From a virus: 64,000 nt of DNA. The notes below the pieces were generated by a model that saw nothing but the letters and a program-made list of their open reading frames with translations, was not told where the DNA came from and did not search any database. The DNA lies in the IMG/VR virus record IMGVR_UViG_3300042484_001840, positions 64,001 to 128,000 of that record; one strand, 5' to 3'. Position numbers and translations under genes: made by a program. Of the stretch, positions 1,926-50,501 are shown piece by piece. Every line of letters begins with the position of its first letter. The first letter of the stretch is position 1.

Positions 1926-1942
1926 TAAAAGTTTGGATTGAT

Positions 1943-2469: not shown

Positions 2470-2567
2470 GATAAGTTTTACCTAGGTGAATGCAGACTAT
2501 GTAATAATAGGTATGCATGCCGAATTGAGCAAGATGAGCCTGTATTTTCTAATTTATATGGAGTAAA

Positions 2568-2900
2568 ATGAATGATGTAATTAGTAATGATGTTTTCTGG
2601 CATAAAGACAATCATGTCATTCATTTGCAACTAAACAAAAGCGAAGTATCTATCGTCCATGTTCACTGCCCTCATACTGAAGACAGAGAATGCCGTATTG
2701 GGAAATTTGAATGTATCGTTTCTTGGTTCTTGGATAGGTACGGACTTGAATGCAATGTTGGCATTTGTGAGATTTCGTCCGAGATTGAAATAGCATGGTC
2801 TGCGGTCGGGGAAGACTTTGACGATCCAGAACTATGCCAAGTTTGGGTAATCCCAGTAAACGATGAAGCGTTCTCCGCTTGGCTGATTACTCAGGCGTAA
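2568..2900 (+). CDS. Hypothetical protein
   Basis: 110-aa ORF with GGAG RBS. Confidence 0.6.
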   Translation: MNDVISNDVFWHKDNHVIHLQLNKSEVSIVHVHCPHTEDRECRIGKFECIVSWFLDRYGLECNVGICEISSEIEIAWSAVGEDFDDPELCQVWVIPVNDEAFSAWLITQA

Positions 2901-3369: not shown

Positions 3370-3437
3370 ACAAATGCACTATAGTACATTGGACAACCAC
3401 GGCACGCCCATTGAGCCTCAATTTATGGAGACAGTAA

Positions 3438-3680
3438 ATGAGCCTTGAAAACAAACTCAATAGCCTCAAGCAAATTAGGGATCTGAAGAATGTGTGTACC
3501 GTTGGCGGCATTATCAATGAGTTACCAGAAGTAGAGAAGAAGGCGCTAGTCAGTGCCCTTAGTTCTAAAGCCTCAACACGAGGAATCTACGATGCTCTCA
3601 AATCTGAAGGTTTCAAGATTGATAGACAAACAATAACTCTTCACCGTAAGGGCTATTGCCGATGTAAGGAGCAAGAATGA
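3438..3680 (+). CDS. Small hypothetical protein, partner of the downstream phosphoesterase
   Basis: RBS, overlaps the next start; C-terminal HRKGYCRC. Confidence 0.6.
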   Translation: MSLENKLNSLKQIRDLKNVCTVGGIINELPEVEKKALVSALSSKASTRGIYDALKSEGFKIDRQTITLHRKGYCRCKEQE

Positions 3681-4900
3681 CCGATCTATCCAAGCGCCTC
3701 GCTGCTGTAGAGAATCAAGCAGAACTTGAGGACGCAGTAAAGAAGAAGAAGTCACCCCAAGGATGGGAACCTGGTGTTGTCTGGGAAGGCACAAAAGGAA
3801 CTATCACCACAAGTGCGGTATATGAACCGCCGAAGGAATGGTCATCACTCCTGAAAGAACGAGGACTAGACCCCGACCTTTACGAGATCGTCGGAGACAC
3901 AATTCGCTGGACATCTTTTGATGGATGGAAGCGAGATGCACCTGGCGACGAGGCATATAGCACTATTTGTTATTCTTACAAGGCTGATATACGCCTGAAG
4001 TCCCCAGAACGACCCAATTTGGACGAGATATATCAGGCTATAAAGAAGGCAAAAAAGCCCTCTAAAGAAGCACCCTCTGGAGACACCACTTTTGTCATTG
4101 CTCTGTCGGATTGGCAGACAGGAAACCGTGATGGTGGCGGAGTACAAAAGCAGGTAGAAGAGATCGCCGCGCTTCCAGATAAATTAGTTAAAAGAGTTCG
4201 TGACCTGCGCAAATGCGGTACGAAAATCAACCATATCCTTATTGTTGGCTTAGGCGACCTAGTAGAAGGAACTTGCGGACACTACCCAGCCCAGCAATTC
4301 CGTATTGAAGTAGACCGCCGAGAGCAGATGAAGATTGTCCGAAGGGGAATCCGCGACATCATTATGGCTCTAGCCCCCTTAGTAGAGCGCGTCACCGTTA
4401 CTGCTGTTGGTGGAAACCACGGTGAAAACAGAGGATTGAGCGGAAAAGCCTTCACCACAACTGGAGACAACGACGATGTTGCCATCTTTGAGCAGATTGC
4501 CGAAGCCTTCCAGATGAACAAAGAAGCCTTTCCCAATGTCAGTTGGCGTATTCCGCTAGAACGATTGACCACTTCTGTTGAGATTAACGGCAAGATCATC
4601 GCCTTTACTCACGGACACCTTAGTAAGCCTTCTGGGAACGCCGCACAATCTGTATGGAATTGGTGGAAAGACCAGGCTCACGGACGCGCTCACCCAGGTG
4701 TTGCCGATGCCGACATCCTCGTAACAGGGCATTATCACCACTTCAATGCCAAAGAACAGGAAGGGCGAGCACTATTCGTCTGCCCAAGCATCGTATCTGT
4801 TGGTGAATACTTCCAAGATACCTATGGAGTCAAGACTCGTGCAGGCACTTTGACCTTCTGTGTCAATAGCGTCGGATGGACAGAAATGTCAATTGTCTAA
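3677..4900 (+). CDS. Calcineurin-like metallophosphoesterase (Mre11-like nuclease)
   Basis: SDWQ, GLGDLVEG, GNHGE, HGH and GHYHH motifs. Confidence 0.82.
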   Translation: MTDLSKRLAAVENQAELEDAVKKKKSPQGWEPGVVWEGTKGTITTSAVYEPPKEWSSLLKERGLDPDLYEIVGDTIRWTSFDGWKRDAPGDEAYSTICYSYKADIRLKSPERPNLDEIYQAIKKAKKPSKEAPSGDTTFVIALSDWQTGNRDGGGVQKQVEEIAALPDKLVKRVRDLRKCGTKINHILIVGLGDLVEGTCGHYPAQQFRIEVDRREQMKIVRRGIRDIIMALAPLVERVTVTAVGGNHGENRGLSGKAFTTTGDNDDVAIFEQIAEAFQMNKEAFPNVSWRIPLERLTTSVEINGKIIAFTHGHLSKPSGNAAQSVWNWWKDQAHGRAHPGVADADILVTGHYHHFNAKEQEGRALFVCPSIVSVGEYFQDTYGVKTRAGTLTFCVNSVGWTEMSIV

Positions 4901-4936
4901 GAAGTTCATATAAATCTAACGGAGAATTAGGGAAGT

Positions 4937-5548
4937 ATGACAACTATTATTGGACTACAAGGTGACCGCTGGTGTGCAGTAGGAGCGGACAGCCTCATTA
5001 CATCAATGGACGAAAGCGGGTTCATTACTAGTCAACAAGTCCTGTCTAGCACTTCATCTAAACTTATCTCAAAGAACGGTTACATCATAGGAGCGGCAGG
5101 AGATGTCAGAGCAATCAACATCCTGCATCATGTCTACGAACCGCCCACTATACCTAGAACACTAGTACCAAGCAGAATAGATCAGTTCGTCACTAAGGAA
5201 GTCATCCCAAGCCTAAGAGAGTGCTTTGACAACCAAGGCTACAGCCCTCCAGATAAATCTGACCGAGAACACCAAGCCCAACAAGACTCAACAATCCTCA
5301 TAGCAGTCAAAGCCCGTATCTACATTATTGACAACGACTACTCATGGGCACAAGACGAACGAGGCATTTACACCATTGGTACAGGTTGCCAGTATGCAAC
5401 AGCAACATTGCATCTACTTACAGGGAACACAACCAAAGCCCTTACCCAAGATAAGGCAATCTCCCATATACAGAAAGCCCTGTCCATCGCGTCTCACCAC
5501 GACCCGTACACAGGACCGCCACACCACATCCACACCCAGACCACATGA
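4937..5548 (+). CDS. Proteasome beta/HslV-like Ntn-hydrolase
   Basis: Begins MTTIIG (Thr nucleophile after Met removal); GADS, GAAGD, IGTG and DPYTG motifs. Confidence 0.78.
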   Translation: MTTIIGLQGDRWCAVGADSLITSMDESGFITSQQVLSSTSSKLISKNGYIIGAAGDVRAINILHHVYEPPTIPRTLVPSRIDQFVTKEVIPSLRECFDNQGYSPPDKSDREHQAQQDSTILIAVKARIYIIDNDYSWAQDERGIYTIGTGCQYATATLHLLTGNTTKALTQDKAISHIQKALSIASHHDPYTGPPHHIHTQTT

Positions 5549-5566
5549 AAGCCACACTTTTACCAC

Positions 5567-5857
5567 ATGTTTCCCATAAGCCAACCAGTGTTCTTCAAGA
5601 AGGCTAACTGCCTAGGACAGACACACTTAATGTTCCCCCAACACCATAAGGACATTACTTACATCCAACAAGCACGAGAACTCTGTAGTACTTGCAGTGT
5701 GAGCAAACAATGCCTAGAATATGCTCTTGAGTTTCCAGCAGCAGACATGCACGGAGTATGGGCAGGTTTGACAAGTAGGCAGTTATCTGCGGAACAAAAG
5801 CGCAGGGGAATCAAGGCAACACGACCCACATTGGCTCAAATGTGGGGAGATAAGTAA
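5567..5857 (+). CDS. whiB: WhiB-family transcription factor
   Basis: Four conserved Cys (C-x-CxxC-x5-C) and GVWAG turn. Confidence 0.9.
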   Translation: MFPISQPVFFKKANCLGQTHLMFPQHHKDITYIQQARELCSTCSVSKQCLEYALEFPAADMHGVWAGLTSRQLSAEQKRRGIKATRPTLAQMWGDK

Positions 5858-5941
5858 GTATCCCAATAAGTAACATAGATTTTACACAAAACACTACAAA
5901 TTCATGTAATTTACCACTATACAAACAATAGAAGGATAGTT

Positions 5942-6172
5942 ATGTCTACAACCCTCACCTACAACCAGTGGATAGCAATCGGAATAGAACAAGGATGGTG
6001 CGGACCAGCAGTCTGCTACACCCATGATGGACTACCGACTACGGCTGATGAGGACGACGAGTTTCAAGAGAGCGACCCGTGCATCCATATCATCAGACTG
6101 TATGAGGATCACGAGACGAGACTGGCGATAGAGAACAACCATTCGGCTAGCAACTGGCGCAAACCGATATGA
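5942..6172 (+). CDS. Hypothetical phage protein
   Basis: AAGGA RBS; 76-aa ORF. Confidence 0.6.
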   Translation: MSTTLTYNQWIAIGIEQGWCGPAVCYTHDGLPTTADEDDEFQESDPCIHIIRLYEDHETRLAIENNHSASNWRKPI

Positions 6173-6375
6173 GCATCCTTGACGACCTCAAGGCGAGGAT
6201 AGATCAACTCATGAAGGACACTGAGGCTCTTGATGAGGAGTTGGATGAGTGGCAGATCACCAACAACAAGAACTGCATTGCGGAGTTGAAGAGTGACCTA
6301 GTGAGGTTACAGAAACTCATTGACGGGCACTTGAGTACTAAGCAACCCGAATCCGACACTCAGGGCAAAAACTAG
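6169..6375 (+). CDS. Hypothetical coiled-coil protein
   Basis: ATGA overlap with the previous gene. Confidence 0.55.
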   Translation: MSILDDLKARIDQLMKDTEALDEELDEWQITNNKNCIAELKSDLVRLQKLIDGHLSTKQPESDTQGKN

Positions 6376-6691
6376 CACCGCCGAAACGCTCAGGGGAATC
6401 TGTGCCAGCACACCCCACGCCCTCGCGTCCGCACGGGAGCAGAATTTTGTCGCCAGTGAGGTAGGCGTGAATCATGTCGGTCTGAGTTGGGATCGGCACT
6501 CGCGCTGGCGGAGGCTCTGGTAATCCCAGTTCCTCGTCCAGTGCGCGCATCAGCGTCTGGATGCACCAGTTCGTGTAGGCTACACCTAACTTCTCTGCGT
6601 GCTCTACAAGTCGGTTCTTCTGTTTGCCCGGCAAGCGGAGAACGATTGTTGCTGGCTGGGTCTCGTTAGACTTGCGGGGTTTGGCGGGCAT
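6338..6691 (-). CDS. Ribbon-helix-helix-like DNA-binding protein with C-terminal Cys cluster
   Basis: TIVLRLP-x-KNRLVEHAEKLG pattern; CPEC. Confidence 0.55.
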   Translation of the reverse strand: MPAKPRKSNETQPATIVLRLPGKQKNRLVEHAEKLGVAYTNWCIQTLMRALDEELGLPEPPPARVPIPTQTDMIHAYLTGDKILLPCGREGVGCAGTDSPERFGGASFCPECRIRVA

Positions 6692-6839
6692 CGCGCTCCA
6701 CTAGCGTCAGCAGGTATTCGGTGATGGTCATGTCGTATCCTTCGGCTAGGGCGAGGATCTGGTTCTTCGTTTTGCCAGCGATCTTGAGAGTGATAGTCGT
6801 CTTAGGGGAGGCAGTTGGTTTTGGGGGTCGTCCGATCAT
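6666..6839 (-). CDS. Small ribbon-helix-helix protein (57 aa)
   Basis: Manually translated MIGRPPKP...TTITLKIAGKTKNQILALAEGYDMTITEYLLTLV; GRP plus RHH pattern. Confidence 0.55.
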   Translation of the reverse strand: MIGRPPKPTASPKTTITLKIAGKTKNQILALAEGYDMTITEYLLTLVERDARQTPQV

Positions 6840-6939
6840 GTTGGTAGTTTACTGAAAGGAGGTTGCTTTTTGGGGATGGGTCCTGTATAATAGTGTTATA
6901 CCGAAAAGTGTTCGGTTTAAATTACTAAGGAGTATTACT

Positions 6940-7494
6940 ATGAACCGTTTAGATTTAGGCGACTTCAAGTTCGCAGAGAGTCTTGAACGACTCGTCACCC
7001 GACCGAAGGCATTGAATGGCATCGCCCTTCCGACTGTCCGTAACCTAGTTGAGTCGCGTCTTATCAACGCTGACTTTGACGCAGTGATTACATCAGGACC
7101 AAAGGAACGCGAAGTCAACTGGGATCACCCCAACCATCGCGTCTGGGAGTTTGACGATTCGGAAGATAGTTACGGTCCTAAGTTGGAACAAGTAGAAGAG
7201 ATGATCTTTTGGGGTGCACAGCAAGACGATGTTCTCGTTCACTGTCACGCAGGGATGAGTCGCTCTACTGCTACGGCTTGGGGTATCTGTATCGCTAAGG
7301 GCTTGGATGCCAAGGAGAGTCTTGTGGCTCTACTGGATGCTCACCCTAATGATGATGGATACGACGAGAAGCGTTGGTTCTGCCCGAATGGACTTCTTGT
7401 CCGCCACATGCAGACCATCTTCAATGATCCGACTCTCTTGGATATCCGTGAAGAAGTGCTACGCGACGACAAGCGCATCAGCCACTGGCTGTGA
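6940..7494 (+). CDS. Protein-tyrosine/dual-specificity phosphatase-like protein
   Basis: VLVHCHAGMSRS (HCxxGxxRS) P-loop and CPN motif; TATAAT and AAGGAG upstream. Confidence 0.82.
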   Translation: MNRLDLGDFKFAESLERLVTRPKALNGIALPTVRNLVESRLINADFDAVITSGPKEREVNWDHPNHRVWEFDDSEDSYGPKLEQVEEMIFWGAQQDDVLVHCHAGMSRSTATAWGICIAKGLDAKESLVALLDAHPNDDGYDEKRWFCPNGLLVRHMQTIFNDPTLLDIREEVLRDDKRISHWL

Positions 7495-7947
7495 GAGTGC
7501 GTATAACTGTTTCTCATATTCCTTGACAATCTTGTCGTAGGTAGAGAGGAACATCTCTCGGTCCCCATTCGTGTGGAGGTTGTAGGAACTAACTCCTCCT
7601 AGAGCCTTCACCGTTTGGGAGACTAGAGCGTGGATAGATTCAGATGAATAGTTGCCAGAGTGTGCCGCATCAGCAGCACGCCTGAACTGCTGCCATGCTT
7701 CTCCGCCACTGGGTACTGATTCGCCGTGGATCAAATCAACAGTTCTCCGACGCACTTCGCCTACGCGAGGCATGTAACTGTTTTCTATAACAAGGTCGTC
7801 AAGCACGAGGTCAACATCATCCTTGTTTAAATCTTTGAGAATGCGCCACCACGCTTCGTACGCCTGCTTCTGATAGACAGGGTTAATCTGCTGGTTCCAA
7901 CTCAGATAAATTCTGTCAACAATTTGACACAGTTCTGTTTTAGTCAT
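7459..7947 (-). CDS. Putative replicative helicase loader/inhibitor (G39P-like)
   Basis: MTKTE...AWWRILKDL...MPRVGEVR pattern; follows the putative initiator. Confidence 0.55.
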   Translation of the reverse strand: MTKTELCQIVDRIYLSWNQQINPVYQKQAYEAWWRILKDLNKDDVDLVLDDLVIENSYMPRVGEVRRRTVDLIHGESVPSGGEAWQQFRRAADAAHSGNYSSESIHALVSQTVKALGGVSSYNLHTNGDREMFLSTYDKIVKEYEKQLYALSQPVADALVVA

Positions 7948-8347
7948 CTAAGAAGCCACCCTTGCTGTCATCCGCCACCGTGAGGTTAGAGAACCGCTCA
8001 ATGTGAGCCGAGTCCCGCAGGATTAATTCTAGCGAGTTGTAAACCGTTCCGCTTGGATTTTGTCCCATGTGCCAAGGAGATAGGGCACAGCCCCGTATCG
8101 CATCCTTAACAATGTCCGATCCAAATTGGTTGACTGCCACTGTGATCAACTTCGTCCGCTCGTCGGAGAGGCGGGGCTTCCTACCTTTACCTTGGAAAAA
8201 AGTATCTACATAGGTTTGCCAGACCTGAAGAATGATTGCGGGGCTAACAGGTTGTAGATAGTTAGCGCGCTTCTTCTCGGTGCGGGACTGTTTAGTTGGT
8301 TCATCTAAATCAAATAGACTTGGTTGTTCTGAAATAATTTCAGGCAT
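7940..8347 (-). CDS. Putative replication initiator-like protein (C-terminal domain type)
   Basis: W-x2-Y...AIRG-x3-SPWHMGQN...YNSLELILRD resembles phage initiator C-termini; coupled to the loader-like gene. Confidence 0.45.
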   Translation of the reverse strand: MPEIISEQPSLFDLDEPTKQSRTEKKRANYLQPVSPAIILQVWQTYVDTFFQGKGRKPRLSDERTKLITVAVNQFGSDIVKDAIRGCALSPWHMGQNPSGTVYNSLELILRDSAHIERFSNLTVADDSKGGFLDD

Positions 8348-8801
8348 AATTCTCCCCTTAACTTTAGTAATTCTTAGTTTACCAACAAGGATAAACATAT
8401 ATCAACTTATTCCACGGAATATTTAACAAGAAGAAAAGAACACATTACCCTGGAGTAATACGAAACTTGTTTCGTTTTACGACACCAGTAAAGAGTGCAA
8501 CATAACTAAAGAGAGATTAGGTAAGACCTGGAGGGGGGTCTGGGGGGAACCATCGTCTTTTGCTGTCGTACTTTGGGGTACGCTCAAGCAAGCCCTTCGG
8601 ACTAGAGTATGTTGTTCTGACGGGTATGAGGCCTCGTCGTGTTTGTAAGATACTGACTATAGCGCGAGTCATACGCCACCGTCGCATATAGGACATTTTT
8701 TTTGAAAAAGTTTTGCAACTGTAACATTCGTTGCGTGTTTTAGTGTAATGTAGTTACGCGGGGAATGTTTCGCCCCCTTATATTCACCGCATGGTTGAGG
8801 T

Positions 8802-8843
8802 GGTGGAGGTTAAGTGCGTCATGAGCGTTCTTTAACCTCCACC
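8802..8843 (-). terminator. Stem-loop downstream of the 8853-9323 gene
   Basis: GGTGGAGGTTAA...TTAACCTCCACC inverted repeat. Confidence 0.5.
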
Positions 8844-8852
8844 AACTCCCAC

Positions 8853-9323
8853 TTAGATGATGGGGAGATTGAACTCTCGTCGTTCTACCATGATGCCAAG
8901 AGCGCAGTAGTTCACTAGATCTAAGAATGTATCTTGCATTGCTTCGTGATTAGGCTGTCTTCCGTCACCGTCAAGATTTTCTAAGCGCGCCACTTTGTCG
9001 TGGATGCGTACTAGCAATCCTTGTCGTCCAAAGCGAGTGATTGCATCTGGACCATAATCTTTTTGCTTTGATACAAGAATATTTACACATTCTTTTTTGT
9101 TTAGATCTAGTTCTCTCAATCGCGCTACTTCAATTGCTTCCGCACCAATCTGTGAGAAGAACACACAGGCTTGGATGTTTCCACCTCGTCGGTCGTAGAG
9201 TGATTCAATAAACCCATCTAGATACTTGCGTATCATTGCTGGTGATTTATCTTTCCTCTTTAAGACGAGTGAGAAGATGGCATCAATTGCTGACTCTGCT
9301 GATTCGTTCCATGTTTGTGGCAT
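8853..9323 (-). CDS. Nucleotide-modification-associated domain (Nmad1/DUF1599-like) protein
   Basis: KQKDYG...GLLVRIHDKVARLENL...DTFLDLVNY. Confidence 0.7.
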   Translation of the reverse strand: MPQTWNESAESAIDAIFSLVLKRKDKSPAMIRKYLDGFIESLYDRRGGNIQACVFFSQIGAEAIEVARLRELDLNKKECVNILVSKQKDYGPDAITRFGRQGLLVRIHDKVARLENLDGDGRQPNHEAMQDTFLDLVNYCALGIMVERREFNLPII

Positions 9324-9370
9324 GAATCTATTTTTATCACAGAGTCATACACCACCGTCGTTTGTTGAGA

Positions 9371-9595
9371 TCAGCCCTGCCAGATTTTTTGGTATGACAG
9401 TGGCCACTGAGACACTGGTTCGCATCCCTTGTCAAAGTGATCCTTGAGTGCTTCGTCGGTACCGCATGCGGAGCAGATCTCCGTCTTGTTATCCGCTCGC
9501 GAGATCGCGCCAGGGTATGCGCCTGGTGTTTCATTGTTCGGAATGTGGTTATTCACACAGCGCGGACAGATCTTGTGGACTGTTTTAGTATTCAT
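9371..9595 (-). CDS. Small Zn-finger phage protein
   Basis: CPRC...AISRADNKTEICSACGTDEAL; AGGAG RBS. Confidence 0.65.
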   Translation of the reverse strand: MNTKTVHKICPRCVNNHIPNNETPGAYPGAISRADNKTEICSACGTDEALKDHFDKGCEPVSQWPLSYQKIWQG

Positions 9596-9653
9596 TTTTA
9601 CTCCTAGTTAGTAGATTATTTATTGTTAGTAGATGATTTATTAGATAAGTTTA

Positions 9654-9941
9654 TCAGGACTCTTCAAAGTAGTCAACAATCATTTCAAACTTGAGTGATG
9701 TCAAGTGTGCGATCACTGTGTCGGTTAGGCATATCCAGAGTTCTTGATCCTCAAGGATCTGCTCTCCTAATATTTCTAAATCCAAATCAGTGAGTTCATA
9801 CACAAAGTCATACAGGCTGTTTGGTACTACTGGCTCAAAGTTGTCGTTAACAATGCTTCGTATTAGTTGTGGGGAAAGAACAAGCGCGTTAGACGGTGGT
9901 GTCCGATCCCTCTTCCACCACCGTCGCTTGTTGAGAGTCAC
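9654..9941 (-). CDS. Hypothetical protein
   Basis: Part of an overlapping leftward operon. Confidence 0.5.
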   Translation of the reverse strand: MTLNKRRWWKRDRTPPSNALVLSPQLIRSIVNDNFEPVVPNSLYDFVYELTDLDLEILGEQILEDQELWICLTDTVIAHLTSLKFEMIVDYFEES

Positions 9942-10216
9942 TCTTCTCCGACCCAGCGGGCGAAGATGTCATAACGCTGTTTGCCGTCTTCCGATTGGAT
10001 GTATCGGCAAGTTGTTTCAATGCCGGGGTAAGCAATCTTCAGTCGTGTTGAGAATGTTGGCGATGATGCTCGCTTGAACACTGCCCATGACTTCGGCTTT
10101 TGCTTCAGTTCCTCCACGAATGGGAGATACTTCTTCATTGACTTTTCGGATGTGTCTTTTTTTTCTGTGCTCTTGCTGTGGGAAGGCTTTGGGTCTTCCC
10201 ATTGAATGTCAATCAT
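9938..10216 (-). CDS. Hypothetical protein
   Basis: Start MIDIQW with AAGGA RBS. Confidence 0.55.
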   Translation of the reverse strand: MIDIQWEDPKPSHSKSTEKKDTSEKSMKKYLPFVEELKQKPKSWAVFKRASSPTFSTRLKIAYPGIETTCRYIQSEDGKQRYDIFARWVGEE

Positions 10217-10401
10217 TTCCTTGTTTCCTTGTTCTGTGTAATCCCCATTAACCATGGGGTGTATTGGCTTGCGTACATTGACGCTTCAAAGAATGTTCTG
10301 AAGCGTCTCACTGTATCACTATGAGGAAAGTCTACACACCAATTGCGTGTGTCGCCATCCTTCTGAGTGATTTCTTCGTAGTAAATCGTAACCTTTCTCA
10401 C
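10213..10401 (-). CDS. Hypothetical protein
   Basis: Overlapping operon gene. Confidence 0.5.
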   Translation of the reverse strand: MRKVTIYYEEITQKDGDTRNWCVDFPHSDTVRRFRTFFEASMYASQYTPWLMGITQNKETRK

Positions 10402-10853
10402 TTCACCCCTCTTCCCTTAAACCTGTCGTGGGCTTCACGGATACCTTCCATGAATGAGAGATTGTAGGTTTCCCATAAATCGTCATCGCTCAAAATCCAA
10501 CTACCTGTCTCTTGGAGTTCTTCGTCAGTTGCGATACCAGCAACCCACAGGAGTGCGTCCTTGGTATCGGGGAATAAATCATAAGCACCAATGCCAATCA
10601 CTTCCCGTGCGTTCTCACGAAGCGCAGAGGGAGAGAACAGCATGGCATTGCCGTAGGTGACATCTGCTGGTACAGATGTATTGACAGGGCGACCGAGCCG
10701 TTCGGCAAGTTCGCACACGACACCATCGTCAAAGTAGTCGTCGCCAGTAATGCGAGCCTCGTCGTGGTCGTCAAGGTCGTCCATATCTATGATGACGCAT
10801 TCGCTAGCGTCAATGATTGTCTCAGTTCCTAAGTGAACAATAAACTTTGCCAT
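10398..10853 (-). CDS. Hypothetical acidic protein
   Basis: Start MAKFIV after the conserved ACTACTAACAAAGGA leader. Confidence 0.65.
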   Translation of the reverse strand: MAKFIVHLGTETIIDASECVIIDMDDLDDHDEARITGDDYFDDGVVCELAERLGRPVNTSVPADVTYGNAMLFSPSALRENAREVIGIGAYDLFPDTKDALLWVAGIATDEELQETGSWILSDDDLWETYNLSFMEGIREAHDRFKGRGVK

Positions 10854-10934
10854 AAGTAATCCTTTGTTAGTAGTTGCGTGTGTAATCATTATAGCAGGGT
10901 TATGTAGATTACACAACCCTGCTACTTAGATTTA

Positions 10935-11633
10935 TCAGATTATTTGTTCTGCTCGCTCTTTTATTTTGACTAGAGCGTCGTCAAAGAAATTATAGAACTG
11001 TTCATAACCGTCATCGTCATCAAGGTCAATGTCTCCCGATGGTGATGGCTCTTCGCTTTCGTCAAACATGACATCGCCATCCATGACGACGACATAGCCG
11101 ACATAGCCCATACCCGTTTCGCTGTACGCAACACTAAATGTAAGCGTCGGATACATCTCGGAGATTTTGACGAGGAAACCATTTGAGAATGGACTCCAAG
11201 CAGTGTTGTAGAAAATCTCCAACTGTCCGATTGGGGTAGCAGTTCCTATGGGTGCGTTTGTAATTTCAGTATCGTAGTCGCCCCACTTAGTTCCCCAGTT
11301 ACTATTTGCCCAGTCATACCAGTTGCTGTAGCCAGTCTCGGCTAGAGACTTCTGCCCAGCCTCGTACTTTTCCACTGTGTCTTTGACTAGGTGGTCGTAC
11401 CATTCCTGAGTCATCTTGCCATCGTCCAGCATGACCTTCCAATTTGGGTGAGGTTCAGGGGATGTTGGGGTTGGTGACTGCGTGCCATCTAGAGCACTAG
11501 GCATTGGGACTAATGAGGCAATTTTGACAATTCGGTTGCCATCCTTGTCGGTAGATTGGATATCGTTCCAAAAACGAGATAGTAGGGCATTGTCACCCTT
11601 GACTGTCATAGTGTTATCGCAATGGTTAGGCAT
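10935..11633 (-). CDS. DUF1281/YubB ferredoxin-like domain protein
   Basis: MPNHCDN start, NWYDWANSNWGTKW, YNTAWSP and YSETGMGYVG motifs. Confidence 0.75.
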   Translation of the reverse strand: MPNHCDNTMTVKGDNALLSRFWNDIQSTDKDGNRIVKIASLVPMPSALDGTQSPTPTSPEPHPNWKVMLDDGKMTQEWYDHLVKDTVEKYEAGQKSLAETGYSNWYDWANSNWGTKWGDYDTEITNAPIGTATPIGQLEIFYNTAWSPFSNGFLVKISEMYPTLTFSVAYSETGMGYVGYVVVMDGDVMFDESEEPSPSGDIDLDDDDGYEQFYNFFDDALVKIKERAEQII

Positions 11634-13940: not shown

Positions 13941-13954
13941 CGAACTAATGTTCG
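13941..13954. promoter_or_regulatory. LexA (SOS) box
   Basis: CGAAC-TAAT-GTTCG matches the Gram-positive/actinobacterial GAAC-N4-GTTC consensus; ends 4 bp before the ATG at 13959. Confidence 0.7.
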
Positions 13955-13958
13955 TAGC

Positions 13959-14324
13959 ATGATCAACCAGAATAAGTGGACAACCCACATCACAGCACTC
14001 CGCTCATATGCGGAACGAACAGGAACTACGCGAGTCCCGCGGACTCATGTAGAAAATACAGAAACAGGTGAAGTGCGCCTCGGCGCTTGGGTGTCGTATG
14101 TTCGTCACCGCCAGCGCAAGGGACACTTGTCAGTTGTGCAGATTCAGGAACTTGCAACACTCCCGAATTGGCACTACGAACCACTGCCCGCAGGACGGAC
14201 AGGCGACTCTGCCCGTGACGCTCTCATTCAAGCACGGTCTGAAGATGGCGCACGAGTCCGTGAACTCTCACAAGAGTTTGGTCTTACTCGTCAGCGGATT
14301 CATCAAATTATTTCAGCCAAGTGA
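13959..14324 (+). CDS. Helicase-associated (HA) domain plus C-terminal HTH protein
   Basis: W...L..Y...G..RVP..H...LGAWV...R HA motif; VRELSQEFGLTRQRIHQI HTH. Confidence 0.72.
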   Translation: MINQNKWTTHITALRSYAERTGTTRVPRTHVENTETGEVRLGAWVSYVRHRQRKGHLSVVQIQELATLPNWHYEPLPAGRTGDSARDALIQARSEDGARVRELSQEFGLTRQRIHQIISAK

Positions 14325-22493: not shown

Positions 22494-22816
22494 AATTTCC
22501 CCTTTGTAGTAGTTGGTATTTAATAAGTATACAGGCTTCGTGTAAGAATTACAACCTTATTCGCAAGATTATTGGTGTGACATTGGTCACAGGCCAGTCG
22601 TCTGGGGGCTTGGGGGTCGTCGGCCGGGTTTGGGGAGTTTGGCCACCCTGCTTCGGAGGCATTTAGTCCCGCTTGGTTATGGCGAGTTTCCCGTGTTTGT
22701 CGCAAGCCCCGCAGGTGAAAACGGCAAAGCGGAGATGCGGGGCTAGTGGTGGTTTTCGGATTAGCAATTATATGTAAGGGGTGGGGCAGGGTTTCCCCCG
22801 CCCCACCATGCCCCTG

Positions 22817-28373: not shown

Positions 28374-28541
28374 TCAGAACCGAGGTAGTTGGCTTAGGAC
28401 ATAATCCTCGGCACGGGTGATGTACTTAGCCGTAACAGCGCCTCGTGCTTTTCTATAAGCGAGGTCATAGATACGGTCAGCAACTTCAAAGCCATGCTTA
28501 CGGATAAGAGCCTCGTAAAGTTCATTTTCTGAGAATGTCAT
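28374..28541 (-). CDS. Small protein, paralog family A (divergent)
   Basis: ELYEALIRKHGFEVADRI. Confidence 0.55.
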   Translation of the reverse strand: MTFSENELYEALIRKHGFEVADRIYDLAYRKARGAVTAKYITRAEDYVLSQLPRF

Positions 28542-28636
28542 TATTTTCTCCTTAGTAGTGGTGACAGATATAAGTATACACCCGCCGAGTGTAGAAACTA
28601 CAACCATACGGTGTGTCTCTTGTCACACTACCTAAC

Positions 28637-28772
28637 CGAACAGGTGTTCGCACGGAGACACCGAACAAGTGTTCCCCGAACGGGTGTTCGTACCGAACAA
28701 GTGTTCGCTTGATAAAAATACGCACCGACGCATAAAAATACACCGAACAGGTGTTCTACGAACAGGTGTTCG
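28637..28772. promoter_or_regulatory. Array of six LexA (SOS) boxes
   Basis: CGAAC-N4-GTTC at 28637, 28662, 28677, 28694, 28744 and 28759. Confidence 0.85.
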
Positions 28773-28858
28773 CTTGACAAATGTAGCCACATTACGGAGG
28801 GAATGTGGACACAATAAAAGCACAGAACTAGAACCGATAGCCCCGCTAGACTAAAGAT

Positions 28859-30766
28859 ATGAATGGGCAACTAATACTAGGAACGGACACGCTTGTTGCC
28901 GTGTTCCCGTACGATAAGGCGCAAGTTGCGCGGATCAGAACCATACGCGGGGCTGTATGGGACAACGCATCTAAAACATGGCGGATACCCCTTACTCAAT
29001 TCTCCAAGGCAACAGAATTGGCGTTGGAACTCGGCTGGTGGATTAGCCCCGAAGTAGCAATGCTGAACATACCCAGTGAACCCGTGGACATGATGACGGT
29101 GAACAGCAAAACCGTGAGGCTTTCGTTCTCGTTTGACCCAGTAAAAGTGCGTGCGGTTAAGCGGATACCAGGCATAACTTGGGACAAAAAGACGGCATCG
29201 TGGGAAGCCCCGCTCTCGTCACTATCGGAATGTGCTGACTGGGCGAAGCAGTTTGACATGGAAGTAAGCGAAGATACGCAGACGCAAATATCAGAAATAA
29301 CCGAAACCAGGTCAAAACTGATTGAGCAGTCAAGGCAAACCGATGCTGACCTTGAAGTGGCGGGACTACCACTGCTTCCGTACCAAAGAGCGGGCGTGAA
29401 GTACGCTGCTGAGGCACGCAGATGCTTCATTGCTGACGACATGGGACTTGGTAAAACACTCCAAGCAATCGCAACTCTTGAGTATGTTATGGATAGTTAC
29501 CCCGCAGTTGTTGTCTGCCCACCCACGCTGGTACTGAACTGGAAGAACGAGTACAACAAGTGGCTACCAGGTAGAAATGTTGTCACGGTGAAGAACCGAA
29601 GCGAATTCCCAGACGGGGCTTATGATGTTGTCGTTGTTGGTTACTCAAACATCAACGCATGGGCGAACAAACTCCAAAAGCACCGAAGTTATGTGTTTGA
29701 CGAGTCGCATTACTGCAAAAGTGCTGATGCGCAGCGCACGAAGGCTGCCATCAAGATGGCGAAGTCGGCACCGAAAGAAGGAATTGTTCTTTGTTTGACT
29801 GGTACGCCCGTAACCAACCGCCCCGCTGAATACGCCCCGCAGTTGGACATGCTTGGAAAACTTTCTGATTTTGGTGGCAAATGGGGCTTTTACCGACGAT
29901 ATTGCGCGGCTTTCCGAGACAGATTTGGGCAATGGAACATCTCAGGCAACTCCAACTTGGAAGAACTCAACGACAGACTCCGAGGAAACTGTTATATCCG
30001 AAGAACTAAGGACCAGGTACTGGAAGAACTCCCACCCGTGCGTCACAACACGATCCTGATTGAAGGAACTGATGCGGGGCTGAAGGAGTATCGCAAGGCG
30101 GAAAACGACATCGTAAAATATCTAATGGAGCGTGCACGGCAAATCGCTGAAGAACTTGGTGAATCACCGAACTCCGCTGCTGTGCGAGCAAAAATGAGGG
30201 CAGAACGGAACGAACATTTGATTCGCATCGGCGTTCTTCGGAAGTTAGCCGCTAAAGCGAAGATGCCCGCTGTTATTGAATGGGTTGATGGGCGCATTGA
30301 AGCGGGGCAAAAGGTGGTTATCGCCGCTCACCACCGTGAAATCGTTGATGAACTTGCTCAGAAGTATGGGAACATAAAGATTCAGGGAGGCATGGATGTC
30401 AATGATGTGGAAGCAAACAAGAAGATGTTTCAAGAGAAAAGTGTCACAGAAAGCCCCGTTATCGTTCTTTCCATCCAAGCAGCGAAAACAGGTCACACGC
30501 TGACCGCTTCTCAAGATGTTCTCTTCGTGGAACTTCCATGGACACCGAGCGATGTGGATCAAACTTACTCAAGATGCCACCGACTGGGACAAAAGGGCAG
30601 TGTAACAGCAACTTATCTGCTTTGTCAAGGAACTGTTGATGAAAAAATCTACGATGTCATTGAGCAGAAGCGTGGAGTTGTGAACGCTGCGACTGAAGGA
30701 ACCGAAGTGAGCGGGGCTGGTGGAGAATTGTTTGACCATTACCTCCAACTGTCAATGAAATACTGA
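28859..30766 (+). CDS. SNF2-family (SMARCAL1/HARP-like) helicase/annealing ATPase
   Basis: ADDMGLGKT, DESH, LTGTP and QTYSRCHRLGQ motifs; two N-terminal HARP-like repeats (WD...TW/SW). Confidence 0.88.
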   Translation: MNGQLILGTDTLVAVFPYDKAQVARIRTIRGAVWDNASKTWRIPLTQFSKATELALELGWWISPEVAMLNIPSEPVDMMTVNSKTVRLSFSFDPVKVRAVKRIPGITWDKKTASWEAPLSSLSECADWAKQFDMEVSEDTQTQISEITETRSKLIEQSRQTDADLEVAGLPLLPYQRAGVKYAAEARRCFIADDMGLGKTLQAIATLEYVMDSYPAVVVCPPTLVLNWKNEYNKWLPGRNVVTVKNRSEFPDGAYDVVVVGYSNINAWANKLQKHRSYVFDESHYCKSADAQRTKAAIKMAKSAPKEGIVLCLTGTPVTNRPAEYAPQLDMLGKLSDFGGKWGFYRRYCAAFRDRFGQWNISGNSNLEELNDRLRGNCYIRRTKDQVLEELPPVRHNTILIEGTDAGLKEYRKAENDIVKYLMERARQIAEELGESPNSAAVRAKMRAERNEHLIRIGVLRKLAAKAKMPAVIEWVDGRIEAGQKVVIAAHHREIVDELAQKYGNIKIQGGMDVNDVEANKKMFQEKSVTESPVIVLSIQAAKTGHTLTASQDVLFVELPWTPSDVDQTYSRCHRLGQKGSVTATYLLCQGTVDEKIYDVIEQKRGVVNAATEGTEVSGAGGELFDHYLQLSMKY

Positions 30767-32078: not shown

Positions 32079-33107
32079 ATGGCACATGAACTAGAAATGA
32101 AGGCAGACGGAACAGCGAAGTTCGCTTATTCGCTCAAGGGCGGTATCCCGTGGCATCGCCTCGGAGTCCCGCTTGAAGGTTTACAGACAGTAGACGCAAT
32201 GCTCAAAGCATCGGAAGCCGACTACGAAGTAAAACTCACCAAAGTGGCGGCAGTTGATGATGATGGCAACTTCATTCTTGATGGCAATGGAAAGCCGATC
32301 ATTATTGAAGATACCCGTGCCACTATCCGAGACAACGGAGATGGAACGCTTGACGCACTTTCTTCAGTTGGAACTCGCTATGTGGTCAAACAGAACAGGG
32401 AAGTAGCAGAACGCGCGCTCGCAGTAGTCGGGGCTTCTGAGGGAGAGGCAGTTGTTGACACCGCTGGCGTTCTTCAGAACGGAAAGCGTTTCTTCATGAC
32501 GCTTGACTTAGGATCACTCATCATTGATCCGATGGGTGTGAATGACAAGATCGCTCGCTATCTCGTTGTATCCACGGGACATGACGGAGTGTGGCCAGTT
32601 CGCTACGCAAATACCGACATTCGTGCTGTTTGTAACAATACTGTTCGCCTTGGAATCAAGGAAGCAGAACGAGTGTTCGTGGCACGACATACAAAGAACA
32701 TGGACTCAGCGTTTGACGATGCGAAGGAAGTCTTGCGCATCAGCGTTGACTGGGCGAAGAACTTCAAGGTCATGGCAGAAGAGATGCTGTCTATCGCAGT
32801 CCCGAAAGATTCAGGCAAGGTGGACAAGGTTCTCAACCGAGTCTTCCCCATCAAGAAAGATGAGACGGATCGCCAACGAACGAATCGTGAACGCACCAAC
32901 ATGATTATCCGTTCACTCTACGAATCGGACAAGAACGCTGGTGGTTTCGGACATAACGGCTGGAGTATGTACAACGCCATTGGCGAATACCTTGACCATC
33001 ACCGAGACGCAGAGTTAGATGAGCGAGCATTTGCTTCACTTGACGACAACTCATGGGTGACACGCATCAAGTTGGAAACCCAGCAGGCTGTTCTTTCACT
33101 AGTCTGA
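32079..33107 (+). CDS. DUF932 (phage/plasmid-like, TIGR03299-type) protein
   Basis: MAHE, PWHRLG, VG.RY...QN, GHDG and R.VCNNT motifs. Confidence 0.82.
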   Translation: MAHELEMKADGTAKFAYSLKGGIPWHRLGVPLEGLQTVDAMLKASEADYEVKLTKVAAVDDDGNFILDGNGKPIIIEDTRATIRDNGDGTLDALSSVGTRYVVKQNREVAERALAVVGASEGEAVVDTAGVLQNGKRFFMTLDLGSLIIDPMGVNDKIARYLVVSTGHDGVWPVRYANTDIRAVCNNTVRLGIKEAERVFVARHTKNMDSAFDDAKEVLRISVDWAKNFKVMAEEMLSIAVPKDSGKVDKVLNRVFPIKKDETDRQRTNRERTNMIIRSLYESDKNAGGFGHNGWSMYNAIGEYLDHHRDAELDERAFASLDDNSWVTRIKLETQQAVLSLV

Positions 33108-33772: not shown

Positions 33773-33843
33773 GTTGACAATCTAGCATGATGCTGGTAAC
33801 CTTGTCGGTAACAACCCCACAGGGGAACACGAGGAGAATACGA

Positions 33844-34305
33844 ATGTCAGCATCACCGACAACACTTACAGGAAACCTTGTTTCAGATCCCGAACTCAAG
33901 TTCTTGGATAATGGAACAGCGAAACTATCAGGCTCAATTGCCGTTGGTCACTATTGGACTGACGCATCGGGCGAAAAGCAAGAAAAGACTTCATTCATTG
34001 ACTTCGTTGCTTGGCGTTACCTTGCCGACGACGCAGCACGAGTGTTGGAAAAGGGCGTTCGTATCATTGTTACGGGTCGCCTTGAACAGCGTTCGTGGGA
34101 ACAAGACGGGGCTAAGCGAAGCAAGGTTGAACTTATCGCTGACGACATCGCAGTCGCAGTGAAGTCAATTGAGTCGTTTGACCGTCGCCGTGCTGGTGAA
34201 AAGGGTGCTGTTGCGCCGAAGCCAGCCGCTGCTAGGCAGGCACAACGCCCTGTACTTAAGGCGACACCAACGCAATCCGTAATGGAAGATGCCGAGCCAT
34301 TCTGA
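33844..34305 (+). CDS. ssb: Single-stranded DNA-binding protein
   Basis: GNLVSDPELKF, KGVRIIVTGRLEQRSW, acidic EPF C-terminus. Confidence 0.92.
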   Translation: MSASPTTLTGNLVSDPELKFLDNGTAKLSGSIAVGHYWTDASGEKQEKTSFIDFVAWRYLADDAARVLEKGVRIIVTGRLEQRSWEQDGAKRSKVELIADDIAVAVKSIESFDRRRAGEKGAVAPKPAAARQAQRPVLKATPTQSVMEDAEPF

Positions 34306-37781: not shown

Positions 37782-38090
37782 TCATTGCTGACTCGTGGAA
37801 ACTTTTGTTCTGTTCCGTAACCCAATCATTGCGGACAAATAAAATCCTGCCGCGTGACGCTCCATCTCTGTTTCTCCGCCCCACACGCCGTACTCGTGGT
37901 TTTTCCTGCCGTACTCTCGGCACTCTGCGGATACAGGGCATTGCCGACATATAGCGACCGCTTGTGCTTCACGCTTTACCCGTCTCTCAGGTCGCTCGGC
38001 AACCTTAGGGAAGAATAGGTCTAACTTGCCACTACAAATTCCCAACTTCTGCCATTCGGTATCTAGAGTTTGAGTGTCGTTGTCGGTCAT
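37782..38090 (-). CDS. whiB: WhiB-family transcription factor
   Basis: W...C...LFFP...ICRQCPVSAECREY...YGVWGG. Confidence 0.92.
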   Translation of the reverse strand: MTDNDTQTLDTEWQKLGICSGKLDLFFPKVAERPERRVKREAQAVAICRQCPVSAECREYGRKNHEYGVWGGETEMERHAAGFYLSAMIGLRNRTKVSTSQQ

Positions 38091-49407: not shown

Positions 49408-50085
49408 TTACGGCGCTTTTCTTCCATTAGCAATAAATGAATTATATGTCGCTGGCATTTGTTCGGCAAGGATTTGCTCTAATGCATTGGCATAGTCACG
49501 AATTTCTTTTTGTGCATGCGAGTCTGCCCTTAGTTCAATGAAGTTCATCAAAGAACGAGCATTACATGTTGCGTAGAACTGAGTAAATGTCCCTACAGGA
49601 AGAACAACACGAGCAAGTTCCTTAGCAACACCAAGTTCTAAAAGTAAACGATACGAATCATAAGCATGAAGCATGAGTCCGTTCATTATCTCTGACGCAT
49701 CAACCGCAATATCCTCATTTAGTGGTTCAAAAGAGTAGCGACCAGGTACGCCAACTTGCGTACGAAAATCTTCAATTTCTGGGATAAAAAACTCATCGGT
49801 CATTTCTGCATACCGCGCTGAAAATTCGTTATACGACCAGCCGATTCTGTGACGGAACCATTCTCTTGTTACAAAAATAGGTGCCTTGATATGAAGTCTA
49901 AAAAAGTTATGTTCAAATGGCGTGCCGTGCTGATTTTTTAAAAGATAGTTAATGAGTCCAATGTCTCCATCGGAAATTTCCTCTACGCGCTTTCCAAAAG
50001 ACACTCGCGCACTATTCACAACACTTCTGTCATCAGCCATTACTGCGTCTAGGCGTACAAAACCGCCACCTGCTATTTCAATCAT
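49408..50085 (-). CDS. thyX: Flavin-dependent thymidylate synthase
   Basis: HGTPFEH, RHR-x-SYNEFSARY and HAQKEIR motifs. Confidence 0.95.
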   Translation of the reverse strand: MIEIAGGGFVRLDAVMADDRSVVNSARVSFGKRVEEISDGDIGLINYLLKNQHGTPFEHNFFRLHIKAPIFVTREWFRHRIGWSYNEFSARYAEMTDEFFIPEIEDFRTQVGVPGRYSFEPLNEDIAVDASEIMNGLMLHAYDSYRLLLELGVAKELARVVLPVGTFTQFYATCNARSLMNFIELRADSHAQKEIRDYANALEQILAEQMPATYNSFIANGRKAP

Positions 50086-50339
50086 TTTGATATTGCACTC
50101 ACTCTCCGTGAAACACCTCGTTCTATCGGTGTTTTTCCTCCCCAAATACCAAAAATTTCTTTATTCTCTAAAGCGGACAACAAGCATTGTTCCCTGACTT
50201 TACATATACCGCAAAGTGTTTTTGCCTGAACCATCAACTTACGACTTTCGCGACTGTTCATTTCTTTTGGGTACCACCATTCTTGTGGTTGCCCCTTGCA
50301 CATGGCATCTTTAGCCCAATCGTTATTTTTGAATTCCAT
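50082..50339 (-). CDS. whiB: WhiB-family transcription factor
   Basis: AMC...LCGICKVREQCL...FGIWGG. Confidence 0.9.
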   Translation of the reverse strand: MEFKNNDWAKDAMCKGQPQEWWYPKEMNSRESRKLMVQAKTLCGICKVREQCLLSALENKEIFGIWGGKTPIERGVSRRVSAISK

Positions 50340-50501
50340 TTTGCCTCCTTGGAAATGAAGAATTGATCTTACGCACAATGTTTTTCAATGTCAAGTATTT
50401 GCGATTTAAATATTTACTTTTACTCCGAGAAGGCGCAATCCAATTTTTGTATTCAGGATTATTCGTAAAATCTTTGTACCTGAAATACTGATTGCTATCG
50501 T

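What the first reader, a model, noticed from the sequence alone, without database searches (positions are those of the whole stretch)
28637..28772. Array of six LexA SOS boxes upstream of the SNF2 helicase
Seen: six CGAAC-N4-GTTC sites (spacers AGGT, AAGT, GGGT, AAGT, AGGT, AGGT) within 136 bp, followed directly by TTGACA at 28774. They lie between a divergent cassette promoter and the SMARCAL1-like gene. Established: GAAC-N4-GTTC is the LexA operator of Actinobacteria and Firmicutes, and host promoters usually carry only one to a few. Inference: six copies suggest a LexA sponge that derepresses host SOS recombination/repair genes for phage benefit, or very tight damage-gated expression of the helicase. 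It parallels the DnaA arrays as a second decoy array.
Basis: partly seen in the sequence, partly recalled or inferred. Interest (0 to 1): 0.82.

Follow-up and report, generated by a model that had tools for sequence, protein, structure and literature searches.

The report
Phage array of host LexA operators
A large uncultured phage of actinobacteria carries six side-by-side docking sites for LexA, the host's DNA-damage repressor, in front of its replication and repair genes, so the phage probably ties those genes to the host's SOS state or soaks up the repressor.

Summary
Six CGAAC-N4-GTTC sites lie at 28637-28772, and they are the only such cluster in the 145-kb phage. A 99% relative has eight.

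The LexA reading is well supported by comparison, not by binding data:
- The phage has three WhiB genes, so its host is an actinobacterium.
- The 14-bp core CGAAC-RNNY-GTTCG equals the boxes I found upstream of lexA, recA and dnaE2 in a 1.5-Mb actinobacterial genome.
- Host lexA promoters themselves carry 2-5 such boxes at 14-17 bp spacing.
- More than 120 distinct arrays occur in viral contigs of 26-69% GC, with no shared neighbouring protein. None of 30 array-bearing records tested has a LexA-type DNA-binding domain above Pfam's cut-off.
- Cultured Gordonia phage Marietta has three canonical boxes at the head of its replication operon.

The one failed feature, the missing outer T/A, is explained. 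This genome has purged TCGA (1 found, 395 expected).

Function is unresolved. SOS-gated control of the divergent region heading the helicase/SSB block is most likely. A LexA sink is possible. The TTGACA at 28774 has no matching -10.

This scan has noted similar arrays in other phages, and I found no paper describing them. I class it as a new variant of a known kind.

The parts
28637..28650 (+). LexA-type box 1, CGAACAGGTGTTCG
   Evidence: PWM 17.7 bits
28662..28675 (+). LexA-type box 2, CGAACAAGTGTTCC (last base off consensus)
   Evidence: PWM 11.1 bits
28677..28690 (+). LexA-type box 3, CGAACGGGTGTTCG, 15 bp after box 2
   Evidence: PWM 16.9 bits
28694..28707 (+). LexA-type box 4, CGAACAAGTGTTCG. 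Same 14-bp core as the box upstream of lexA in genomes G043 and G073
   Evidence: PWM 19.0 bits
28709..28743 (+). Spacer with TTGATA (28709-14), two ATAAAAATAC repeats (28712-21, 28732-41) and a weak -10 candidate TAAAAA (28733-38). Possible promoter P1 followed by boxes 5 and 6
   Evidence: The layout resembles host lexA promoters, -35/box/-10/box/box. The -35 is lost in L009
28744..28757 (+). LexA-type box 5, CGAACAGGTGTTCT
   Evidence: PWM 16.5 bits
28759..28772 (+). LexA-type box 6, CGAACAGGTGTTCG, 15 bp after box 5
   Evidence: PWM 17.4 bits
28774..28779 (+). TTGACA hexamer 2 bp after box 6, with no TAnnnT 16-19 bp downstream
28780..28815 (.). Two copies of a second palindrome, AATGT-N4-ACATT (28780-93 exact; 28802-15 with one mismatch). 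Probable operators of another, unknown protein
   Evidence: only exact copy in the genome. In L009 there are two copies 21 bp apart
28847..28852 (+). TAGACT, a -10-like hexamer 6 nt before the helicase ATG. There is no Shine-Dalgarno, so the start is probably leaderless
   Evidence: Conserved in L009 while the flanks diverge. Inference
28859..30766 (+). SNF2-family helicase, first gene of the rightward block (DUF932 at 32079-33107, SSB at 33787-34305)
28374..28541 (-). 55-aa gene reading leftward from the same spacer (strong AAGGAG ribosome site). No family match
28612..28627 (.). CRP/GlxR-like palindrome TGTGT-N6-TCACA, 9 bp left of box 1
   Evidence: two such sites in the phage, none in the control. 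The same element sits beside arrays in L014 and L019
13941..13954 (+). Seventh, single LexA-type box CGAACTAATGTTCG. It overlaps a -10-like TAATGT just before gene 13959-14324 (HA domain plus C-terminal HTH)

Best explanation
The six sites are operators for the host's SOS repressor LexA. They are written without the outer T/A because this phage tolerates no TCGA. They sit in the divergent control region that heads the phage's replication and repair block (SNF2 helicase, DUF932, SSB). LexA dimers bound side by side, as on the host's own lexA promoter, keep transcription from or through this region low. When LexA is cleaved, by DNA damage or by the SOS response that infection itself triggers, these genes switch on sharply. 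Shown: the sequence match, the recurrence in many phages, the native host precedent for tandem boxes, and the absence of a phage LexA-type binder. Inferred: LexA binding, repression, and which promoter is controlled.
For: Host. The phage has three WhiB genes.

LexA in the host phylum. lexA was found in 77 of 81 sampled Actinomycetes genomes and in 4 of 5 small genomes.

Host boxes. Boxes upstream of lexA read aTCGAAC-RNNY-GTTCGAt. In the 1.5-Mb genome G073 all four CGAACRNNYGTTCG sites lie at lexA, recA, a DUF6504-dnaE2 cassette and one other locus. Their centres are AAGT, AGGT and AGAT, as in the phage.

Native tandem design. Of 120 genome loci with tandem pairs, 26 hold lexA, about 22 of them with the pair within 300 bp upstream. 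Spacings are 14-17 bp and some promoters have up to 5 boxes.

Selection on the arms. The arms are invariant in all 14 boxes of the window and L009, and all centre changes are transitions.

No phage-encoded binder found. The phage has no LexA_DNA_bind or S24 domain. None of 30 array-bearing viral records has LexA_DNA_bind above cut-off. No protein family is shared by more than 10 of 128 arrays.

Cultured parallel. Gordonia phage Marietta has three perfect TCGAAC-N4-GTTCGA boxes in the divergent spacer that heads its WhiB, helicase, Cas4, RecA, DnaE and primase operon.

Flanks. TCGA occurs once against 395 expected in the genome, which explains the C/C flanks.

Timing. Host SOS genes rise within 5 minutes of infection in Rhodococcus phage WC1 (PMC10986025).
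Against: There are no binding data. The boxes overlap no complete promoter: TTGACA at 28774 lacks a -10, the P1 candidate is weak and its -35 is lost in L009, and the helicase's TAGACT lies 75 bp past box 6. The sites score 11-19 bits against a median of 24 for host lexA sites. Across 128 arrays, consensus promoters are no commoner within 100 bp than at random positions (10% against 9.7%), although the promoter model is crude. In relatives the arrays sit beside DnaA boxes in long spacers away from the helicase. The exact host is unknown.
Confidence: 0.5

Rival explanations
1. LexA sink. The array's main role is to bind up host LexA as phage DNA multiplies. This would derepress host SOS genes (recA, dnaE2, division inhibitors) for the phage's benefit. 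The DnaA-box arrays in the same early region would do the same for DnaA.
For: A whole 1.5-Mb actinobacterial chromosome has only 3-4 exact CGAACRNNYGTTCG sites. The 136-bp array has 4 exact sites plus 2 near-exact, and the relative has 8 boxes. Copy number varies between 99% relatives. The arrays are not tied to consensus promoters. They recur next to DnaA-box clusters (0.75 against 0.12 boxes per kb), sometimes in spacers with no obvious promoter. Most complete array-bearing phages tested lack a tyrosine integrase (5 of 6).
Against: lexA is negatively autoregulated (boxes at its own promoter), which buffers free LexA against decoys. The phage sites are weaker than host sites, where a decoy should be at least as strong. 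Array size does not rise in genomes forced to use weaker, TCGA-free boxes (rho -0.11, p 0.23). No expression data exist.
Confidence: 0.2
2. The sites are operators of a phage-encoded regulator whose specificity merely resembles the LexA box. The protein could be an activator of the middle (replication) genes that binds upstream of a weak promoter.
For: The array lies upstream of promoter-like elements rather than over them. The phage encodes an HA-domain plus HTH protein (13959-14324) that has one such box at its own promoter, and its relatives lie within about 500 bp of arrays in 8 loci. All six boxes point the same way. Viral boxes carry the outer T/A less often than host lexA boxes, even where TCGA is tolerated (32% against 80%).
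Against: The same 14-bp core recurs in phages of 26-69% GC with no shared neighbouring protein. The HA domain is present in only 4 of 30 array-bearing records and 1 of 6 complete ones. No LexA-type DNA-binding domain was found. The common orientation is explained by tandem duplication plus transition-only drift.
Confidence: 0.12
3. The array is part of a replication-origin or other architectural nucleoprotein hub, in which LexA boxes and DnaA boxes gate or organise initiation rather than transcription.
For: In L018, L021, L040/L044 and L069 the boxes directly abut DnaA-box arrays. An AT-richer 35-bp spacer splits the array.
Against: Within 300 bp of the window's array there are no DnaA boxes. 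Only 15 of 128 arrays have two or more DnaA boxes nearby. The spacer has a GC-rich centre and is not a convincing unwinding element. Earlier notes on the DnaA arrays also report no unwinding element; I did not test this.
Confidence: 0.08

Closest known systems
Autoregulatory operator of the host lexA gene in Actinomycetota, especially the Acidimicrobiia type
   Same: Same core CGAAC-RNNY-GTTCG. Tandem boxes at 14-17 bp spacing. Up to 4-5 boxes per promoter. The Acidimicrobiia versions also lack T/A at the junctions and use 14-15 bp spacing.
   Different: The phage array has 6-8 boxes and lies on a phage. It is not interleaved with a recognisable -35/-10 pair. None of its 12 half-sites has the outer T/A.
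Phage GIL01 promoters P1 and P3 with tandem host-LexA boxes and corepressor gp7 (PMC4551915, PMC6182141)
   Same: A non-integrating phage with no repressor of its own places tandem host LexA operators at promoters for its replication and late genes.
   Different: GIL01 has two boxes per promoter, lying within the promoter. It is a 15-kb temperate linear plasmid phage of Bacillus and needs gp7. No gp7 counterpart is known here, and the lifestyle here is probably lytic (no integrase).
Virulent phages that read host master regulators through multiple sites: phi29 with Spo0A, and alphaproteobacterial phages with CtrA (PMC9437464)
   Same: Several copies of a host transcription-factor site lie in phage early regions and are used to defer or time the lytic cycle.
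   Different: The regulator and the signal differ. Those sites are promoter-associated.
Transcription-factor titration loci such as E. coli datA for DnaA (from my own knowledge)
   Same: A dense cluster of sites for one host protein whose number, rather than position, could matter.
   Different: Titration is demonstrated for DnaA at datA. Nothing comparable is shown for LexA or for a phage.
Gordonia phage Marietta (MH669007.1), spacer between genes 77 and 78
   Same: Three LexA-type boxes at 55213-55273 in the divergent spacer that heads an operon with WhiB and an SNF2-type helicase related to the window's.
   Different: The boxes are fully canonical, TCGAAC-N4-GTTCGA, because TCGA is not avoided in that genome. 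There are three boxes, not six. They are not annotated in the record.

Membership tests
LexA operator of Gram-positive/actinobacterial type (SOS or Cheo box) | Palindromic core CGAAC-N4-GTTCG | tested here: met
   All 6 sites have CGAAC-N4-GTTC and 4 of 6 have the final G. The arms are invariant in all 14 boxes of the window and L009.
LexA operator of Gram-positive/actinobacterial type (SOS or Cheo box) | Purine at the first and pyrimidine at the last spacer position (RNNY) | tested here: met
   All six are R..T. Host lexA-locus boxes show R at 85% of these positions.
LexA operator of Gram-positive/actinobacterial type (SOS or Cheo box) | Outer T and A (TCGAAC...GTTCGA) of the 16-bp actinobacterial box | tested here: not met
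   0 of 12 half-sites have it, against 80% in host lexA loci. This is explained by genome-wide purging of TCGA, 1 found against 395 expected. Acidimicrobiia lexA promoters also lack it at 14-15 bp junctions.
LexA operator of Gram-positive/actinobacterial type (SOS or Cheo box) | The host encodes LexA and uses this box at SOS genes | tested here: inconclusive
   This holds for the phylum: 77 of 81 sampled genomes have lexA, and boxes lie at lexA, recA and dnaE2. The phage's own host species is not identified.
LexA operator of Gram-positive/actinobacterial type (SOS or Cheo box) | The operator overlaps or abuts a promoter that it represses | tested here: inconclusive
   Box 6 abuts a TTGACA that has no -10. 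Boxes 5 and 6 follow a weak P1 candidate. No transcription start data exist.
LexA operator of Gram-positive/actinobacterial type (SOS or Cheo box) | Bound by LexA and released on RecA-stimulated cleavage | not testable with these tools
   Needs EMSA, footprinting or ChIP.
GIL01-type LexA-controlled phage switch | Small phage corepressor that stabilises LexA on DNA (gp7) | not tested
   The divergent 55-aa gene (28374-28541) has no family match. No gp7 reference was compared.
GIL01-type LexA-controlled phage switch | Temperate, plasmid-like carrier state | tested here: inconclusive
   No tyrosine or serine integrase was found. ParB_N proteins are present. This is not evidence of a carrier state.
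Transcription-factor decoy or titration locus | Site number comparable to or exceeding the host's own sites for that factor | tested here: met
   The array has 4 exact and 2 near-exact boxes, against 3-4 exact boxes in whole 1.5-Mb genomes.
Transcription-factor decoy or titration locus | A measurable drop of free factor and derepression of its regulon | not testable with these tools
   Needs host reporter or RNA-seq experiments.

The most novel reading that the evidence does not exclude
Large, non-integrating phages of actinobacteria, and of other hosts that use this type of LexA box, carry non-coding platforms of binding sites for host master regulators: LexA arrays, DnaA-box arrays and CRP-like sites. 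These would work by titrating or re-routing those proteins, and would amount to a DNA-based host-takeover device rather than ordinary promoters.
Probability: 0.15. Interest if true: 0.85.

Novelty: new variant of a known kind. Interest (0 to 1): 0.62.

Why it matters
Phages that borrow LexA are known mainly as temperate elements with one or two boxes at a lytic-switch promoter. Here a large, probably lytic phage holds six to eight boxes. The same design recurs in well over a hundred uncultured phage contigs and in a cultured Gordonia phage, often beside DnaA-box arrays. If the boxes gate replication and repair genes, lytic phages sense host DNA damage directly. If they act as a sink, phages manipulate a host regulon with DNA alone. 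Both ideas can be tested now with Gordonia terrae and phage Marietta.

Tried and rejected
1. HA-domain/HTH protein (13959-14324) as the general binder. The HA domain is in only 4 of 30 array-bearing records and 1 of 6 complete ones.
2. A phage-encoded LexA homologue. None was found in this phage or in 30 other records.
3. 'More boxes compensate for weaker, TCGA-free boxes'. There is no correlation (rho -0.11, p 0.23).
4. Enrichment of consensus promoters next to arrays. None was seen (10% against 9.7%). The promoter model is crude, so I count this as inconclusive.
5. Classing flanking genes as divergent, convergent or tandem by longest ORF. It misclassified the window itself, so I discarded it.
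6. BLAST of the array and of other arrays against cultured phages. No match.
7. Known RNA families or unusual RNA structure in the spacer. None in Rfam, and the fold z-score is -2.0.
8. Naming the host through the closest WhiB in 401 actinobacterial genomes.
9. TTGACA at 28774 as a complete promoter. It has no TAnnnT at 16-19 bp, unlike the phage's TTGACA-N17-TATAAT promoters.
10. Same-strand orientation as evidence against a symmetric binder. It is explained by segmental duplication and transition-only changes. Tandem pairs in bacterial genomes show the same bias, 32 same against 8 opposite.

Full report
**Observation**

The sequence holds six exact CGAAC-N4-GTTC sites between 28637 and 28772. 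Their spacers are AGGT, AAGT, GGGT, AAGT, AGGT and AGGT, and TTGACA follows at 28774-28779. GAAC-N4-GTTC occurs 9 times in the window against 1.14 expected, and no shuffle out of 100 reaches 9. The stricter word CGAACRRGTGTTC occurs six times in the whole 145-kb virus record, all here and all on one strand, with none in the backwards control.

Each site is a 14-bp near-palindrome, CGAACA-NN-TGTTCG. Start-to-start spacings are 25, 15, 17, 50 and 15 bp. The array is built from duplicated two-box and box-plus-GCTTGAYA units.

A contig whose helicase is 99% identical (L009) has eight boxes, through a 30-bp insertion of two more units. In all 14 boxes the arms are invariant, and the centres differ only by A/G transitions. 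That pattern fits a protein-binding repeat that grows and shrinks by unequal exchange. It also explains why all boxes point the same way. More distant relatives of the helicase (80%, 59% and 55% identity) have no array in front of it.

**Setting**

The array lies in a 318-bp spacer between two genes:
- a leftward 55-aa gene (ATG at 28541, strong AAGGAG site);
- a rightward SNF2 helicase (28859-30766), followed by DUF932 and SSB genes.

The spacer also holds three other elements:
- a CRP/GlxR-like TGTGT-N6-TCACA site at 28612-27 (two in the phage, none in the control);
- two copies of a different palindrome, AATGT-N4-ACATT, at 28780-93 and 28802-15;
- a -10-like TAGACT six bases before the helicase ATG, which has no Shine-Dalgarno. 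This suggests a leaderless start.

The phage's clear promoters read TTGACA-N17-TATAAT. The TTGACA at 28774 has no such -10, so I do not accept it as a demonstrated promoter. A weaker candidate is TTGATA-N18-TAAAAA (28709-38), followed at once by boxes 5 and 6. It copies the layout of host lexA promoters, but its -35 is lost in L009.

**Are these LexA boxes?**

The phage encodes three WhiB proteins, a family that in the control genomes appeared only in Corynebacterium. The host is therefore an actinobacterium.

- I found lexA in 77 of 81 sampled Actinomycetes genomes and in 4 of 5 further small genomes of the phylum.
- The boxes beside lexA give aTCGAAC-RNNY-GTTCGAt.
- Two 1.5-Mb, roughly 50% GC genomes carry CGAACAAGTGTTCG upstream of lexA. 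That is the same 14 bases as phage box 4.
- In one of them (G073) the only four CGAACRNNYGTTCG sites in the genome lie at lexA, recA, a DUF6504-dnaE2 cassette and one more locus. This is the expected actinobacterial SOS set.
- An orientation-free scan of bacterial genomes for two boxes 14-18 bp apart returned 120 loci. Of these, 26 contain lexA, about 22 with the pair just upstream. Spacings are 14 to 17 bp, and some promoters have up to five boxes.

Closely packed tandem boxes are therefore a native LexA operator design, and the phage array is an enlarged copy of it.

Three of the 29 consensus sites (three of the 26 used for the weight matrix), and part of the 77-of-81 tally, come from genomes flagged as unpublished: G040, G019 and G047, plus G011, which contributed no site. 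No conclusion depends on them alone.

**The failed feature**

None of the twelve phage half-sites has the outer T/A of the 16-bp actinobacterial box, against 80% in host lexA loci. In a weight matrix the sites accordingly score 11-19 bits, against a host median of 24 and a minimum of 13.7.

The reason is visible in the genome. TCGA occurs once where 395 are expected. ACGT and AGCT never occur (422 and 427 expected), and CCGG and GGCC are about tenfold depleted. A canonical TCGAAC...GTTCGA box cannot exist in this DNA.

Across 110 arrays, TCGA-purged loci have no T/A flanks, against 32% in tolerant loci (p 1.3e-5). Even tolerant phages stay below the host's 80%, so the explanation is complete for this phage but only partial in general. 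Acidimicrobiia lexA promoters use 14-15 bp spacing without T/A at the junctions, like the phage. This is a weak lead on the host.

**A phage-encoded binder?**

- The phage has no LexA_DNA_bind or peptidase S24 domain.
- Tandem pairs of the box occur in 58 viral contigs under a strict pattern.
- I counted 128 distinct arrays of 2 to 8 boxes, in loci of 26-69% GC.
- No protein family within 2.5 kb is shared by more than 10 of them.
- One candidate is an HA-domain plus HTH protein. It carries a seventh box over its own -10-like element at 13941-54. However, the HA domain is present in only 4 of 30 array-bearing records and 1 of 6 complete ones.
- None of the 30 has a LexA-type DNA-binding domain above Pfam's cut-off.

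A conserved host protein is the simplest common factor.

**A cultured example**

One hit is Gordonia phage Marietta. Three perfect TCGAAC-N4-GTTCGA boxes, two of them 16 bp apart, lie in the 650-bp divergent spacer between genes 77 and 78. That spacer heads the leftward operon containing WhiB, an SNF2-type helicase related to the window's, Cas4, a RecA-like protein, DnaE and primase. At least two further cultured relatives keep a tandem pair (L219, L224). The record does not annotate the boxes.

**What does the array do?**

I rank SOS-gated control of this divergent region first (0.5). It matches the Marietta layout and the host promoter design. It also fits the report that host SOS genes rise within five minutes of actinophage infection, before phage DNA-synthesis genes (PMC10986025).

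Against this reading:
- No complete promoter is overlapped.
- Arrays in general are not enriched for consensus promoters (crude model).
- In the complete relative L021 the homologous array sits beside ten DnaA boxes, 2.6 kb from the helicase. In L018 the boxes again sit beside DnaA boxes, in a spacer more than 400 bp long after the upstream genes.
- DnaA boxes are six-fold enriched within 300 bp of arrays.

These points keep a LexA sink alive (0.2), as do the site counts: the array has as many exact boxes as a whole 1.5-Mb chromosome. However, lexA autoregulation and the sub-consensus sites argue against a sink. A phage-encoded regulator (0.12) and an origin-linked hub (0.08) remain possible.

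Of six complete array-bearing phages tested, five have no tyrosine integrase. This phage has neither a tyrosine nor a serine integrase. The classic temperate lytic-switch use of LexA (GIL01, PMC4551915 and PMC6182141; overview in PMC9437464) is therefore not the obvious model.

**Prior knowledge**

My literature searches found LexA co-option by temperate phages and host-factor reading by phi29 and CtrA phages. They found nothing on multi-box LexA arrays in lytic or actinobacterial phages.

Earlier notes of this scan record similar arrays in other phage genomes and DnaA-box arrays in this one. I treated them as leads only.

Noticed in passing
whole record G000 (window = 64001-128000): Extreme avoidance of 4-bp palindromes. 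ACGT occurs 0 times (422 expected), AGCT 0 (427), TCGA 1 (395), CCGG 26 (251) and GGCC 27 (356). AGCT is also absent from every related contig checked, while TCGA avoidance varies among relatives.
   Followed up: partly
G000 1-11341 and 133702-145042: The two ends of the record are 99.6% identical over 11.3 kb, with an exact run at 656-11273. The unique genome is therefore about 133.7 kb, with either a long terminal repeat or an assembly overlap. IMG/VR lists the record as having no end repeats.
   Followed up: partly
window 28780-28793 and 28802-28815: A second palindrome, AATGT-N4-ACATT, occurs in two copies. It is the only exact copy in the genome. In L009 two copies lie 21 bp apart. This looks like a two-site operator for an unidentified regulator between the array and the helicase.
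   Followed up: partly
window 28612-28627 and 22576-22591: CRP/GlxR-like TGTGA-N6-TCACA palindromes. Nearly the same 18-mer abuts the -35 of consensus promoters next to LexA-type pairs in L014 and L019.
   Followed up: partly
window 13941-14324: A single LexA-type box overlaps a -10-like TAATGT seven bases before the ATG of a 121-aa protein with an HA domain and a Sigma70_r4/Mor-like HTH. Three DnaA boxes lie 160 bp upstream.
   Followed up: partly
window 28847-28861 and 13946-13961: Both genes start 6-7 bases after a TAnnnT hexamer with no Shine-Dalgarno. They are probably leaderless mRNAs, whereas the neighbouring leftward genes use strong AAGGAG sites.
   Followed up: no
window 23745, 24932, 34893, 37212, 37256, 11694 and others: A set of near-consensus promoters, cTTGACAttc-N14-TATAAT, on both strands of the early region.
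   Followed up: no
L344 (Gordonia phage Marietta MH669007.1) 55213-55273; also 48583: Three unannotated canonical LexA boxes head the replication operon. A fourth GAAC-N4-GTTC lies about 150 bp upstream of the RecA-like gene 66.
   Followed up: partly
L052 and L059 (26% GC viral contigs): Arrays of CGAACAAATGTTC lie just upstream of a perfect TTGACA-N17-TATAAT promoter. The promoter is followed by a shared sequence, gtatttggtggaaagcgacc, which may be a conserved RNA leader.
   Followed up: no
window 49408-50145 (-), 50082-50378 (-), 37782-38090 (-): A ThyX-type thymidylate synthase (RHRxxSxxxxSxR motif) and WhiB-like proteins lie in the later part of the window.
   Followed up: no
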